Origin: Nitrospirota bacterium
Lineage (GTDB): Bacteria > Nitrospirota > Thermodesulfovibrionia > Thermodesulfovibrionales > UBA6898
Direction: 5' to 3'
DNA length: 33,771 nt
Assembly: GCA_021825805.1 (NCBI GenBank)
Contig: JAKAGF010000002.1
Coordinates: 1 to 33,771, forward strand
Below, piece after piece: positions 20,749 through 26,700 of the stretch; positions within the stretch are counted from its first letter, which is position 1, and the number at the start of each line of letters is the position of its first letter. A program made the position numbers.

Positions 20749-23700
20749 TGAGCGCCGCCTTGTTAAGAAAGCGGCCTGAATTAGGGTTCTGTGGCAACTT
20801 TCGATTTTGAGTGCCTACTCCTGAATTCAGCCGGAAAACACGCTGAGAACCAACCCCGTCAAATGCCTTCCTGACTGCTTTTCCACACAAACTGCTTGAC
20901 AATTGTCACGCGTCACGTTACAATTGTCACGTGATAAAGACGTTTGCCGACAAACACACCTATGGCTTCTATGCCACCGGCAAGTCCAGGCGTTTGCCGG
21001 CTGACCTGTTGAAACGCGCCATGCGGCGGCTGGAATATATAGACCTGGCATCAAGACTGGAGGATTTAAAGGTCCCTCCCGGCAACCGGCTCCACGCTTT
21101 GAAAGACGACCGGGAGGGCCGGTACTCCATTTCAATTAACGACCAATGGCGTATCTGCTTTCGCTTTAAAGACGGCGATGCATATGACGTCGAAATAACC
21201 GACTATCATTAAGAGGTGTACGATGGCTATTGCAAACAAAGAGGTGCGAACGGTGAAACCTACCCATCCGGGAGAAATGCTTCGCGAGGATTTTCTCCCC
21301 GATTACGAGCTTAGTGCGGCGAGCCTCGCCGATGCCCTTGGCGTTTCCCGTCAAACTGTCAACGAGATACTGCGCGAACGCCGGGCGGTTTCACCTGCCA
21401 TGGCATTGCTGTTATCGCGCCTGTTCGGCAATTCGCCCGAGTTCTGGCTGAATGCCCAGCGTGCAGTCGATCTTTGGGAAGCGAAAAAGCGCCAGGACAA
21501 GAAGCTCAAACGAATACAGCCTTTGAATGCCGCTTAGGTTGACTGGCATGGTTGGAGCGAGCTGCTTAAACATCCGTGCAGACTTTCCTTAGAAGCTGTA
21601 TCGTGCTCAAACGGTCGAAGCTTCATGTAAAAAAAGACGTACGATGAGAGGAGTTAAAAATGCCGGACATCATTAAGAATATAGCGTCGCAGCTGCCGCA
21701 GCCGTCTTTGCCTCAGCCAGAGCACGAAGCTGGCGAGATACTACGCAGTCTGGTTGATGAGGCCGCCTATGTTGGGGAGGTTGTGTCTCTCGGCTACAGT
21801 GAGGCCATACTTCAGATCCACGATTTTCATCGACAACGAGTCGGGGGTATCCCGGCACTCTGTTTCCTGCTCGGTTCGCGTGTGAATCCACAAGTTACGC
21901 CAGACCCAAGAGCTGAAGACTCATCAGTTATCCTGATGCGCGTTATGGATCATGCCGATCTACCAAACGCTGAAGAAGCCAAGCGTGTCCGCGTGGAAAA
22001 TGCACAAAAAGTGAGTGGCGAGGTAGGAGTGAATTGGGATGACCGCACAGTAATGGACGCGACAACACATCATCTTTTGAGTTATGCCGGTGTACGATGC
22101 CGCGTGATTGGTACTTTCTATATGGCTAATCTTGGTGATGATGCTGCACCGAACTGGCAATTGTGTTTCGGCTCGGACATCAGTAACTATTATCCAAACC
22201 GCGGCTTGAAAGTATTTAAACCTCGCGGAGACGTTTTGGAACGCATTGTAAATTACCGCGATCCGATGATATTTTCAGGATTACGAATACCAATGGTACA
22301 TACGGGCCATGTGCGTTATGCTTCCACTAATCGCCGATTTCAGCAGGTGGCCAATGTGCCAGTATCAGTAACACCTACAGATTTATTGGGTCAGAAGACC
22401 GCTTTGTTCGGGATGACGCGTACTGGTAAATCCAATACTACGAAAATTGTTTTGAAAGCTATTTTTGAATTACGTTGGGCAGCCACTGACGCCTTGAAGA
22501 TCGGGCAACTTATATTCGATCCAAATGGTGAATATGCAAATGAAAACACACAAGACGCGAGCACAGGCAGTGACAATCCAAATGCAATTAAGAACGTCTG
22601 GAAATGCGCGCCCCCTAACGTGCAAGCAGGTTTTCGAAAAGATGTCATTACTTATGGGATTACGAAACACCCGAACGATCCAGAGCGAATTCTGATGTTG
22701 CTTAATTTCTATCAAGATCAGAATTTACAGACCGGCAAAGAAATTATTAACGCCGCCCTAACTGAACGAGCTATTGGTCGCATTTATATTTCTAATTTCA
22801 TAGACGTTAACTTCCAATTGCCCGAAGACGCTGATAATGGTGACAAAGTGCGATATCGGCGACGGGTGATGTTCTATCGCGCATTACTACATGAGGCCGG
22901 CTTCGGAAAACCACCTCTAAAAGAAGCAAGATTGGAAGGCTTATTTAATAAAGATTTGAGAAAAGCGTTGAACTCAAGTAAATCAAAAGAGGCGCAAAAA
23001 TATCAGGCATGTGCAGCAATATTTGAAAAAGAGATGGCGTCTTGGACTGAAGTCGCACAAGCAGGAAAGATTCTACATGAATTTATTGAAGATAAAACGT
23101 CTGGCTATCAGGAATTTGAAGCTGAATATGTCAAACAGAGTTCGTCAGGATTTTGGGCTGATGATGCTTTGAAGAAAACTCTTGGCATTTGGGGGTACCC
23201 GAATGGCCCCAAGTTGATTAGTGCTGTTAAAGAGCAACATACCAGCGACACACACACAGACTATGCTGATGATATTTATGCACATTTGCAGGCTGGTCGG
23301 CTTGTTATCGTTGATCAGTCGAGTGGTAATGCGGAAATCAACAAAGCGGCAGCAGATAGAATTATTCTGAAAATATTTGAGAGAAATAAAGCGCTGTTCC
23401 GTCAGGGCGATAGAAGGCCGGAAATCCTGGTCTATATTGAAGAAGCTCATAACACCTTACCACCAGCAAAGGAAGACGATCTTACAGATATTTGGGTGCG
23501 TACGGCAAAAGAAGGTGCAAAATACAATATCGGATTGGTTTATGCGACTCAGGAAGTATCTTCAATTCAAAAGAATATTCTTCGGAACACTGCCAATTGG
23601 TTCATTGGTCATCTGAACAACACTGATGAGACGAGGGAGCTTCGAAAATTCTATGACTTCGCTGATTTCGAAAACAGCATTCTACGTGCACAGGACCGCG

Positions 23701-26700
23701 GATTCATCAGAATGAAGACACTGTCAAATCCCTATATTGTTCCGATCCAAGTTGATCGCTTCAACATTCAAGAGGGCTGAGAACTATGCCATACGAGGGA
23801 GAATACGCTCATTACCAACCGCTGAAACGCATTGTCGAGTCCGAGCGTGTCCAGCAATTACTCCGCAGATCCCGTGTGCTTGATCCGGCAACGCTGACGC
23901 ATCACGCGACGCCCAAAACGCCACCCGTTGCCGATAAAACGTTACCATCTCTCGTGTTGGCGATTGACGGGAGCAACGCAGAAGTAGATGTTCGTAATGG
24001 ATATCCGGGAGCAAAGGTCGGGTACTGTTCAGTGGCTTCTGTTGTCCTAAATCTCGATGAAGTTGAACGGCTTGATGAAAACCGGCCCGTGAACCCGATA
24101 GAATTTCGTCGCACAGAAGACTTGTCGTCTGATGCCTGTGCTCTTCCGGGTTGTAATGTTATTACTCGAGACCATGTTGCGGCAAAGGATTCTTTTCGAG
24201 AGGCAGTCTTCGACCTACTTCATGACGCAATTGTTGATGAAGAAGACAACACGCGGTTGCTTGCGACGTATCAAGCGCTTCTCAGGTATAAACCGGAAGG
24301 GACAATTAGCTGCCCTTACACGCATCTCGGTTGTGAGCGTCAGGTATCCATTATGGAACATCTTAGCACGTGCACATGTGGGAGAAAAAAACCTCTGTTT
24401 CCAACAGATGCGTTACGCATTCACGAGCGATTCAATGACGAATCGGGAAGCAATGGAGAAGCCTTTGGCTATGTGCGCGGCGTTTGGGAACACCTTCTGC
24501 TGATTCACTTATTGAGATGTTTCGAGCAACGCAATTGGTTTGATCGTCTCGGGTCCATTGCCTTTTTCCTCGACGGACCCTTGGCTGTATTCGGGCCGCC
24601 CGCTTGGATGAGTGCTGCTATGAAGAAGGAATTACAGCGTTTGAATGCGGTTGTTCGAGAGAAAACTGGCAATGACATGATTATTGTAGGTATTGAAAAG
24701 TCTGGTAACTTTGTCGCACATTTCGCGGATATTGACAAACGGGATGATGGCGGCCAGAACTTTCAACCTGAGTCATATTTCCTTCCGACAGATGCTTACA
24801 TCAAACAGCGAATTATTTTTTCAGACAGCGATAAACAATATGGTAAGGATACTTACTTTGGCAGAAAGTTATTCTATAAGACGAAGAGTGGGGCGCAAAT
24901 CGTAGCCAACATTCCATTTCTGTCATCTGAACAGGATACGCTTGATAGCGATGATCCTTCGCTTTATCCTCGTTTTGGAACAATCTGTGCGCTGCTTGAC
25001 AAGCTGGTAACTTCACGTTTTCCGAATGCGCTTGGTCCAATTGTCAGCGCACATGCGCAAGCCTCTATCCCGCTGCATCTAGGCCAGAAAGTGCTGAAAC
25101 AACTGGCTCAGGCGTTAATGCGAAAATGATTAAAACTGAGATCACCATATCACGCTATGGAACTGCTGCAAGCCGATGGGCAGGCGTCGGCCCATACTAT
25201 GCCATGTTCCCAGTAAATTTTGCGACTGCGGCCGTGAGGGAATACACCAAGCCCGGCGATGGCGTCTTTGATCCGTTTGCCGGACGCGCTACTTCTCTAT
25301 TCGCAGCTGCTTCCGAGGGGCGTATTGGATTGGGAATTGAAATTAATCCTGTTGGATGGGTTTATGGCAAGGCAAAGTTGCAGACGGCAGCGCGAGCAGA
25401 TGTTGAACAGCGCATCGAATGGCTGGGCAAAAGGGCGAAGAATTACCGAGCCGCTGCAAAAGGATTGCCTGAGTTCTTTACGTACTGCTACTGTTCTAAG
25501 GTCCGGGAATTTCTTTTGGCGGCTCGCGATTTACTATGCTGGCGTCGTGCAAAAACTGATTGGACAACAATGGCGTTACTTCTTATCGATTTACATGGAA
25601 AGAGAGAAAGTGCCTTATCGAATCAGATGCGACAAACAAAAGCAATGTCGCCTCAATATGCGATTGGCTGGTGGAAGGAGAATAAACTGGAGCCGCCAGA
25701 GCGTAATCCCGTTGAGTTCATGCTTAAGAAAGTGGCGTGGCGATACGCAAGGGGACGTTTAGAGGCCAGCGAGGGGCGCGTTTATTTGGGAGATTCACAA
25801 CTCATTCTTGCAAGATGGGAAAACAATGCGCCAAAACAAAGGGCGACCCTTCTGCTCACGTCTCCACCTTATCATGGAGTTACAAATTACTTTTATGACC
25901 AATGGCTGCGGTTATGGTTGCTCGGTGGGTCGGAAAAGTTCTATAGCACTGGTGAACCTTGTAAACGAAAATTTGATAATAAGAAACACTACATTGCCAT
26001 GCTATGCCGAGTGTTCACGAAGTCAAAGCCTCTACTGAAGCGTAACGCAGTTGTGTATGTGCGCACTGACGCACGCCAATTTACCAGAGAAGCAACAATT
26101 GAAGCTCTTGAGACTGCTTTTCCTCAAAAGAGGTTGCGTGACGAGCGGTTCTCGTTGCCAGCATTCTCTCAAACCGCCTTGTTTGATTCAGCTCGGGAAC
26201 CGAAAGGTGAAATTGATTTCGTAATGTGGTAATAGAACCAAAGCGACATGCCAAAACTGTCCTCAAGACAAATGACCAACACTCTCTATACCATCGGCTA
26301 TGCAACTCGTTCCCTCGACGATTTCATTGTTCTTCAGCCGCAATCCGCAATTCAACCGCGAACTGCTCAAACAGTCGCTGAAATCTCATAATATCGAGTA
26401 TGTATTTCTTGGCGAGGAACTTGGCGCACGGCCAAAAGACCTGTCATGCTATGTCGAAGGGAAGGCAATCTATGAAAAGATTGCTGCTACGCCGTTGTTT
26501 AAAAACGGGATAGAACGCGTTAAGCTCGGAATTAAGAAAGGTTACACTCTTGCTCTTATGTGCGCAGAGAAGGACCCGATGACGTGTCATCGAACGATAT
26601 TAATATGCAGAAATCTACGAGGACAGGGCATTGATATCCGGCATATCGTCGATCTGAAAACCATGGAGACGCAAACGGAACTGGAGAAGCGATTGATCGC

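What a model noticed while it worked through the whole genome (the two positions that open the first line are those of the whole stretch)
21660..26232. HerA-NurA-N4C methyltransferase mobile cassette (candidate restriction-type defence system)
A low-GC three-gene cassette encodes a HerA-like ATPase, a NurA nuclease and an N4-cytosine-type DNA methyltransferase. The three genes travel together into unrelated genomic sites, which fits a self-methylating restriction-like defence system with HerA-NurA as the destroying arm.
Evidence so far: Gene GC 0.45-0.48 against about 0.56 around it. In 45 related metagenome loci (44-86% NurA identity), the methyltransferase follows nurA in 34 of 35 with room and herA precedes it in 34 of 34; no fourth gene recurs and flanks differ in the ten loci mapped. 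NurA/N6_N4_Mtase are near in 202 GTDB genomes but 1 of 316 in the order. The methyltransferase matches N4C methyltransferases weakly and has DPFAG and SPPY motifs. PADLOC hits are generic HerA and MTase_II, none for the NurA.
(Added by a program. Inside this text positions count along the whole contig: contig position 1 is position 1 of the stretch shown here. "Call 12" and the like, gene names such as g00115 and contig names such as C1 are that model's own, and its searches are not shown. The text may have been shortened before it was handed on; [...] marks where a part breaks off. The agent that wrote the report below was given it as the finding of a first reader that could run no searches.)

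Follow-up and report, generated by a model that had tools for sequence, protein, structure and literature searches.

The report
Methylation-guarded HerA-NurA restriction cassette
Three tightly packed genes for a ring-type DNA motor, a nuclease and a methyltransferase recur as one unit in bacteria of many phyla, and they likely form an untested restriction system in which a methyl mark would protect the host's own DNA, a methylation counterpart of the sulfur-based TdpABC defence.

Summary
Confirmed. herA, nurA and an alpha-order SPPY methyltransferase form one low-GC unit. In 80 GTDB loci the same methyltransferase follows nurA in 76 of 77 with room, and herA precedes it in 78 of 80. No fourth gene recurs. 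The nearest solved proteins are TdpA and TdpB of the phosphorothioate system TdpABC, not repair HerA-NurA.

Distant branches keep a methyltransferase but change its class: Dam-type in 36 of 40 loci, beta-class in 5 of 5 cyanobacterial loci. Some copies are cargo of Vibrio prophages and Cas12k transposons. None of 132 HerA sequences has the canonical arginine finger.

Best reading: a likely restriction-modification system whose motor-nuclease would destroy unmarked DNA. It is untested.

Against: a similar nurA-herA-methylase set in Thermus ICETh1 serves DNA donation; two plasmid relatives lack the methylase; gene-decay asymmetry is not significant; m4C versus m6A is open. I found no paper naming it in ten searches, but two key papers were not held. 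This scan noted the same cassette type before on other genomes.

The parts
21660..23780 (+). herA: HerA/FtsK-family ATPase, 706 aa, with a long insert between the Walker motifs; predicted hexameric dsDNA pump
   Evidence: Pfam DUF87 E 1e-10; best PDB hit TdpA 8wet E 1.3e-18
22410..22433 (+). HerA Walker A, GMTRTGKS (251-258); R254 and K257 invariant
   Evidence: 132 of 132 full-length HerA
23433..23453 (+). HerA Walker B, YIEEAHN (592-598)
   Evidence: E594 and E595 in 132 of 132
23517..23519 (+). Ala620 at the position of the canonical arginine finger (EGRK in solved HerA, EGAK here)
   Evidence: Aligns with the EGRK arginine of all 5 displayed PDB HerA, including R381 of 4d2i by my count on the alignment; A 126, S 4, G 2, R 0 of 132
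23786..25129 (+). nurA: RNase H-fold NurA nuclease, 447 aa; candidate catalytic D61, D263, K305, H423; N-terminal MPYxGE as in TdpB
   Evidence: Pfam NurA E 8e-10; model best matches TdpB (Foldseek E 3e-6; Z 16.6, rmsd 4.6, 308 aligned); D61 114/115, D263 113/115, K305 114/115, H423 100/115
24311..24379 (+). Four-cysteine insert in NurA (C176, C183, C196, C198), predicted zinc ribbon
   Evidence: Invariant in 36 close sequences; first three Cys in 106-111 of 115 distant ones
25126..26232 (+). Alpha-order amino-methyltransferase, 368 aa: motif I DPFAG (49-53), conserved helical insert (about 85-215, likely target recognition), motif IV SPPY (246-249); likely m4C DNA methyltransferase
   Evidence: Pfam N6_N4_Mtase E 5e-12; PADLOC MTase_II over 24-270, E 1e-17; D49, P50, F51, G53 and SPPY invariant in 38; model pLDDT 84

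Best explanation
The three genes form a mobile cassette that likely works as a restriction-modification system: the methyltransferase would mark a short sequence in host DNA, and a HerA ring carrying a NurA nuclease would pump in and destroy DNA that lacks the mark. Shown here: the fixed three-gene unit, intact Walker and nuclease motifs, kinship to TdpA/TdpB, patchy spread over many phyla, and a methyltransferase neighbour kept in three branches while its class and orientation change. Inferred: the methyltransferase is an exchangeable self-marker rather than a fixed subunit, so the motor-nuclease itself would read the mark, as I recall TdpAB does for phosphorothioate. Also inferred: HerA hexamer with NurA dimer, phage or plasmid DNA as target, m4C as the mark in this branch, and ATP hydrolysis through a substitute for the missing arginine finger (R254, K621 and R684 are invariant candidates).
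For: Linkage: methyltransferase directly after nurA in 76 of 77 GTDB loci with room (one only as a remnant; the 77th, L023, 4 kb away); herA before it in 78 of 80; no other gene family in more than 5 of 80 loci. The 80 loci fall into 64, 43 or 13 clusters at 90, 80 or 70% NurA identity. Kinship: TdpA is the best PDB hit; TdpB Z 16.6 against 7.8-10.9 for canonical NurA. Class exchange: Dam/D12-type gene beside 36 of 40 sister-branch loci with room, 26 upstream, 5 downstream, 5 convergent; beta-order SPPF methyltransferase upstream in 5 of 5 non-seed cyanobacterial loci. Mobility: cassette GC below flanks in 55 of 62 loci; NurA match in 4 of 316 other genomes of the order, against Pfam NurA in 208 of 401 genomes of a control class; cargo next to the integrase of two Vibrio temperate phages and beside Cas12k in 2 of 5 cyanobacterial loci. 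The Vibrio methyltransferase matches PD-Lambda-5_B at E 5e-120, from a validated system called 'RM+Abi' (PMC9519451, passages). Large lesions hit the effector and spare the methyltransferase in L022, L025, L042, L065 and L084; an orphan methyltransferase exists (G078).
Against: No phage, methylome or biochemical data. Two of four plasmid relatives fetched (L082, L083; 24-25% NurA identity) have no adjacent methyltransferase, nor has L176. Three loci have a frameshifted methyltransferase with nurA intact (L036, L054, L059; herA intact in two, cut by the contig end in L054), which strict self-protection would not tolerate unless these one-base shifts are assembly errors or phase variation. Effector-only versus methyltransferase-only breaks (11 vs 3) equal the length expectation, p = 1.0. 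No target motif stood out in a palindrome-avoidance test. The arginine finger is absent in 132 of 132, and R381K abolishes ATPase and DNA degradation in Sulfolobus HerA (PMC4351679, passages), so motor activity is not guaranteed. In Thermus ICETh1 a nurA-herA-PF01555 set serves DNA donation and loss of the methylase has only minor effects on transfer. The methyltransferase model's top wide-search matches are RNA amino-methyltransferases.
Confidence: 0.55

Rival explanations
1. Restriction-modification of type I/III logic: the methyltransferase is also the specificity subunit and loads or activates HerA-NurA at unmethylated sites, so the effector is silent without it.
For: Would explain the three loci with a broken methyltransferase and intact nurA, the shifts in a T-run as phase variation (L043, L054, L059), the overlap with nurA, the very conserved methyltransferase insert and possibly the missing arginine finger.
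Against: Three different methyltransferase classes fill the slot, some on the opposite strand, which fits poorly with a fixed interface. The three apparent NurA-methyltransferase fusions all lose the conserved NurA C-terminus in what look like frameshifts.
Confidence: 0.15
2. Defence, but triggered by free DNA ends or infection (abortive or end-loading degradation), with methylation acting only indirectly, for example on expression or on a second nuclease.
For: Archaeal HerA-NurA degrades both strands from DNA ends and was proposed to be antiviral (PMC12977600, passages). Relatives without a methyltransferase exist. The related PD-lambda-5 methylase belongs to an 'RM+Abi' system.
Against: Does not explain why a methyltransferase is kept in 77 of 77, 36 of 40 and 5 of 5 loci while its class changes; no second nuclease recurs.
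Confidence: 0.13
3. A DNA-donation or mobilisation module like ICETh1, where TdtA (HerA family) and NurA push chromosomal DNA to neighbours and the methylase is accessory.
For: ICETh1 co-transcribes a type IIG restriction enzyme, nurA, tdtA and a 410-aa PF01555 methylase; tdtA and nurA are needed for transjugation (PMC5365140; PMC7767461). The cassette is very mobile.
Against: No restriction enzyme, integrase or competence gene recurs in 80 loci; no integrase among 34 window ORFs scanned. Prophage and CRISPR-transposon cargo positions suit defence. Near-perfect retention of the methyltransferase argues against a minor role.
Confidence: 0.1
4. Accessory DNA-repair HerA-NurA with a hitch-hiking methyltransferase.
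For: Canonical HerA-NurA act in DNA end processing; this is the only Pfam NurA in G000.
Against: No mre11/rad50-like gene recurs; patchy, low-GC distribution; NCBIfam repair HerA scores 35-40 bits against cut-offs of 800-970; closer to TdpB than to repair NurA.
Confidence: 0.05

Closest known systems
TdpABC phosphorothioate-based R-M system (An et al. 2025, PMID 39820821; PDB 8wet, 8wfd, 8y1k). Paper not held; seen only as PDB titles and as cited in PMC12914056 and PMC13223576 (passages); its mechanism is recalled.
   Same: Three genes: HerA-type motor, NurA-type nuclease, one DNA-modifying enzyme. TdpA is the best sequence hit; TdpB is the best fold hit and shares the N-terminal MPYxGE.
   Different: The third gene is a SAM-dependent methyltransferase, not the phosphorothioate enzyme TdpC. 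NurA is 447 aa with a four-Cys insert (TdpB 375). HerA is 706 aa (TdpA 586) and lacks the arginine finger that TdpA keeps. NurA-TdpB identity is only 11-14%.
Thermus thermophilus HB27 ICETh1 operon tth111II-nurA-tdtA-TTC1880 (PMC5365140, PMC7767461; passages read)
   Same: NurA, HerA-family ATPase and a PF01555 N4/N6 methylase in one low-GC mobile operon, the methylase overlapping its neighbour by 4 bp.
   Different: Order is nurA-herA-methylase; it includes a type IIG restriction enzyme and an integrase; NurA is 377 aa; the tested role is DNA donation. I could not obtain these sequences, so orthology is untested.
Canonical HerA-NurA of archaea and Deinococcus (end processing)
   Same: Same two protein families and nuclease fold (Z 7.8-10.9).
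   Different: No mre11/rad50 linkage, patchy and mobile, always beside a methyltransferase in this branch, arginine finger absent.
SIR2-HerA (Nezha) and DUF4297-HerA anti-phage systems
   Same: HerA motor coupled to an effector in defence.
   Different: Effector here is NurA; those systems carry no self-modifying enzyme as listed in PMC12948488; NCBIfam scores 45 and 26 bits against cut-offs 800 and 850.
PD-lambda-5 (PMC9519451, passages)
   Same: The Dam-type methyltransferase of the sister branch matches PD-Lambda-5_B (E 5e-120); a relative of the window's methyltransferase sits two genes from a PD-Lambda-5_A-like gene on a plasmid (L087).
   Different: Its partner protein is not HerA-NurA: PADLOC gives no PD-Lambda-5_A hit for the HerA or NurA proteins scanned.

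Membership tests
TdpABC | HerA-type motor homologous to TdpA | tested here: met
   Best PDB hit, E 1.3e-18
TdpABC | NurA-type nuclease with the TdpB fold | tested here: met
   Z 16.6, rmsd 4.6, 308 aligned; Foldseek E 3e-6
TdpABC | Phosphorothioate enzyme TdpC in the operon | tested here: not met
   Third gene is PF01555; no fourth gene in more than 5 of 80 loci
TdpABC | Degradation of unmodified DNA and phage defence | not testable with these tools
   Needs phage and biochemical assays
ICETh1 transjugation module | nurA, HerA-family ATPase and PF01555 methylase in one operon | tested here: met
   gene order differs
ICETh1 transjugation module | Type IIG restriction enzyme (Tth111II) in the operon | tested here: not met
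   None in the window; no such family recurs in 80 loci
ICETh1 transjugation module | Orthology to TdtA, TTC1878 and TTC1880 | not testable with these tools
   Sequences not reached
Repair HerA-NurA | Linkage to mre11 and rad50 | tested here: not met
Repair HerA-NurA | Arginine finger (EGRK) before strand 4 | tested here: not met
   R in 0 of 132
Alpha-class m4C DNA methyltransferase | Motif I before motif IV, motif IV = SPPY (class rule recalled) | tested here: met
   DPFAG 49-53 and SPPY 246-249, conserved in 38
Alpha-class m4C DNA methyltransferase | Product is N4-methylcytosine in DNA | tested here: inconclusive
   Sequence hits include m4C and m6A enzymes over about 50 residues only; Foldseek top hit is Dam; wide search top hits are RNA amino-methyltransferases; one automatic Atlas name says N4-cytosine
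Classical type II R-M | Cognate site-specific restriction endonuclease beside the methyltransferase | tested here: not met
   Neighbour is NurA, with no PADLOC hit; no other gene recurs
SIR2-HerA / DUF4297-HerA | SIR2 or DUF4297 partner and family-level HerA score | tested here: not met

The most novel reading that the evidence does not exclude
A widespread, unnamed class of restriction system in which one HerA-NurA motor-nuclease lineage accepts plug-in self marks (alpha-order SPPY, Dam-type and beta-order methylation in these branches, phosphorothioate in TdpABC), reads the mark itself while pumping DNA, and runs on a rewired ATPase site without the canonical arginine finger.
Probability: 0.35. 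Interest if true: 0.82.

Novelty: new variant of a known kind. Interest (0 to 1): 0.62.

Why it matters
If true, it adds a methylation-based restriction type that has no classical restriction endonuclease and that PADLOC 2.0 has no NurA model for. It would show that a DNA pump can itself tell self from non-self by marks of different chemistry. It would link TdpABC, the ICETh1 module and repair HerA-NurA. The cassette is only 4.6 kb, and versions exist in cultured hosts (Vibrio prophages, Micromonospora, cyanobacteria, Halorarius), so it is directly testable. The family-wide loss of the arginine finger is a separate enzymological puzzle.

Tried and rejected
Complex prediction of HerA 225-706 with the methyltransferase: no answer, score 0.00, no evidence either way.

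Target motif from palindrome avoidance in 44 and 33 de-duplicated cassettes against codon-shuffled controls: only the general avoidance also seen in flanks.

Decay asymmetry by count: not significant. In the sister branch only 3 of 78 loci were scored broken, too few to test.

NurA-methyltransferase fusions P0391-P0393: rejected as likely frameshift read-throughs.

tRNA genes in 60 of the 80 loci: 9 loci have one, no common insertion site.

higBA and DUF488 as members: no homologue in any of 80 loci.

Attempts to reach ICETh1-type proteins through plasmids and a class-wide NurA search did not find them.

The NurA profile A1 finds no significant PDB sequence; the wider profile finds TdpB only at E 0.088.

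No RNA holder listed. Contigs of four runs from one study, possibly the source, cover 19912-27104 without differences; not independent.

Literature: ten searches gave no paper naming this cassette; one search returned mostly unrelated papers. An et al. 2025 and Iyer et al. 2004 were not held, and the latter may already note such neighbourhoods. No supplements were read; supplementary gene-neighbourhood tables of PMC10853773 or PMC12839542 could list it although their main texts do not use the word NurA. DefenseFinder and REBASE were not available.
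Full report
Observation. The window holds herA (21660-23780), nurA (23786-25129) and a methyltransferase (25126-26232) on the + strand with a 5-bp gap and a 4-bp overlap. Pfam gives DUF87, NurA and N6_N4_Mtase above cut-off. PADLOC has only generic HerA and MTase_II hits, and no NCBIfam family reaches its cut-off for these three genes. Gene GC is 0.45-0.48 against 0.558 for the genome, but about half of this contig is also near 0.49. The one genome of the same genus (G252, 91% complete) matches window 16-31 kb only in two pieces under 170 bp, so the whole region looks accessory. 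Each gene is single-copy in G000.

Linkage. A GTDB scan found 212 relatives and kept the best 80, at 48-84% NurA identity; record titles span at least 15 phyla by my reading of the names. Three loci end inside nurA. In the other 77 the same methyltransferase is always present: directly after nurA in 76 (in L075 only as a remnant) and 4 kb away in L023. herA precedes nurA in 78 of 80; L025 and L065 have lost herA and the start of nurA. No other family occurs in more than 5 of 80 loci. The loci form 64, 43 or 13 clusters at 90, 80 or 70% identity. Cassette GC is below the flanks in 55 of 62 loci with enough flank. I did not see the 132 relatives that were not kept. In the window's order 4 of 316 other genomes match the NurA profile: two carry the same cassette, one a Dam-type version, one ends at the contig edge. 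Searching from the methyltransferase side gave 3 of 316: those two plus an orphan copy in G078.

The proteins. HerA keeps Walker A and B in 132 full-length sequences from all branches. Its best solved relative is TdpA. At the arginine-finger position, where all five displayed PDB HerA read EGRK, the family has Ala 126, Ser 4, Gly 2 and never Arg; R254, K621 and R684 are invariant. In Sulfolobus HerA this arginine is essential (PMC4351679, passages), so the family either uses another basic residue or is regulated differently. I cannot tell which. The NurA model (pLDDT 78) matches TdpB far better than repair NurA (Z 16.6 against 7.8-10.9). Candidate catalytic residues and a four-Cys insert are conserved. 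The methyltransferase has motif I first and SPPY later, with a conserved helical insert. That order and motif suggest an alpha-class m4C enzyme (recalled rule), but structure searches return Dam and RNA amino-methyltransferases, so base and substrate stay open. The conserved insert suggests one shared target in this branch (inference). A relative at 26% sits beside a second methyltransferase, an HTH gene and an unknown convergent gene on a Psychrobacter plasmid, an R-M-like layout.

Distant branches. A profile search found 809 clusters at 50% identity. A FastTree of 115 NurA sequences, midpoint-rooted, shows several branches. For one sister branch a metagenome scan kept 80 of 102 relatives. 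Forty had room on both sides: 36 have a Dam/D12-type methyltransferase adjacent, 26 upstream, 5 downstream and 5 convergent. Of the other four, L180 has it one gene further, L184 has a beta-order enzyme, L132 has an insertion sequence where herA should be, and L176 has none. These 40 form 24 clusters at 70%, 21 with the gene by the strict rule. Of the 40 loci without room, 19 show it. In 401 cyanobacterial genomes six match, one being the seed; the other five all have a beta-order methyltransferase directly upstream, two of them beside Cas12k. Two Vibrio cyclitrophicus temperate phages carry herA-nurA; in the one opened, a convergent Dam-type gene follows and the set lies between integrase and excisionase. 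IMG/VR gave only 5 loci. Of five plasmid hits I opened four: Halorarius and Deferribacter have a methyltransferase related to the window's, and two cyanobacterial plasmids have none adjacent. So the motor-nuclease keeps a methyltransferase while changing its class and orientation, with a few exceptions.

Decay. Of the 80 close loci 53 are fully intact, 11 have only the effector broken, 3 only the methyltransferase, 3 all three; the other 10 touch contig ends. The 11-to-3 ratio is what gene length predicts. The kind of lesion differs: insertions and deletions fall in herA or nurA and leave the methyltransferase whole (L022, L025, L042, L065, and plasmid L084), whereas methyltransferase-only breaks are single-base shifts, two in the T-run coding F117-F118 (L054, L059; L043 too) and one near codon 131 (L036). 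They may be assembly errors or phase variation.

Mechanism. The simplest reading is TdpABC with the mark changed. The methyltransferase would mark host DNA, and a HerA hexamer capped by NurA would translocate and degrade unmarked DNA. Free exchange of methyltransferase classes, some on the opposite strand, suggests that discrimination lies in the motor-nuclease. All functional steps are inferred. That TdpAB destroys unmodified DNA is recalled, since the paper was not held; searches show only that TdpABC is a phosphorothioate R-M system with TdpC as sole modifier. Rivals: methyltransferase as loading subunit (0.15), end- or infection-triggered defence (0.13), ICETh1-like DNA donation (0.10), repair (0.05).

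Prior knowledge. The gene set is not unprecedented. ICETh1 of Thermus thermophilus co-transcribes a type IIG enzyme, nurA, tdtA and a PF01555 methylase and needs nurA and tdtA for DNA donation (PMC5365140, passages); loss of the methylase matters little for transfer (PMC7767461, passages). A figure legend lists a Thermus antranikianii protein among TdtA's best homologues; I recall that species as the source of TdpABC, which would tie the two together, untested. Passages of PMC10853773, PMC12839542, PMC3417536, PMC11630473 and PMC12948488 did not describe this cassette. Ten searches found no naming paper (listed under Tried and rejected). Earlier notes of this scan describe the same cassette type on other genomes; they gave me the TdpABC lead, which I then tested, and are not independent support.

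Verdict. A real, strictly conserved, mobile three-gene system; not a member of TdpABC or of the ICETh1 module by the features tested, but most likely working like the former. New variant of a known kind; interest 0.62.

Noticed in passing
window 26272-26899 (+): DUF488 gene (PADLOC candidate PDC-M45B, E 2e-54) whose start lies in another frame from its body, apparently after an internal deletion; likely a pseudogene. Not found in 80 related loci.
   Followed up: partly
window 20896-21537 (+): higB-higA toxin-antitoxin pair directly upstream of herA, behind an 11-of-12 sigma-70 consensus promoter; no terminator-like site between higA and herA, so it could drive the cassette here.
   Followed up: partly
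window 19471-19705 and 26924-27157: 242-bp direct repeat at 73% identity: the 5' end of araC with its divergent intergenic region, the second copy a truncated remnant before adh. One low-depth contig joins 19678 to 27199, a weak hint of a form without the 7.5-kb segment; it may come from another organism.
   Followed up: partly
L238 8061-12435, L240 3082-7532, L241 579-4872: A different nurA-herA pair (HerA closer to archaeal repair-type HerA) followed by a TGT/DpdA-like transglycosylase gene (weak hits, E 1e-9 to 1e-5), a possible deazaguanine-marked counterpart.
   Followed up: partly
L234 2226-11970, L235 514-11998: Methyltransferase-herA-nurA as cargo between Cas12k with a MerR-like regulator and Tn7-like genes (labels of the latter recalled).
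   Followed up: partly
Sister-branch loci, e.g. L165, L173, L175, L179, L182: A UvrD-like helicase family (cluster in 20 of 85 loci) often follows nurA in the Dam-type branch; a possible optional fourth part.
   Followed up: no
L086 5965-11324, L089 5956-11306: Relatives of the methyltransferase (29%) convergent with a 1,400-aa AAA protein on rhizobial plasmids, once after an anti-phage dGTPase.
   Followed up: no
L087 3805-7077: PD-Lambda-5_A-like gene, an unknown 366-aa gene and a window-type methyltransferase in one operon on a Mesorhizobium plasmid.
   Followed up: no
window 28557-31699: Mercury-resistance cluster (merR, thioredoxin-like, merT, HMA domain, merA-like reductase) on low-GC DNA.
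   Followed up: no
window 11219-18542: Low-GC biosynthetic-looking cluster: HAD phosphatase, class III aminotransferase, EamA, ketoacyl synthase, hydrolase, DegT aminotransferase, FemAB-like.
   Followed up: no
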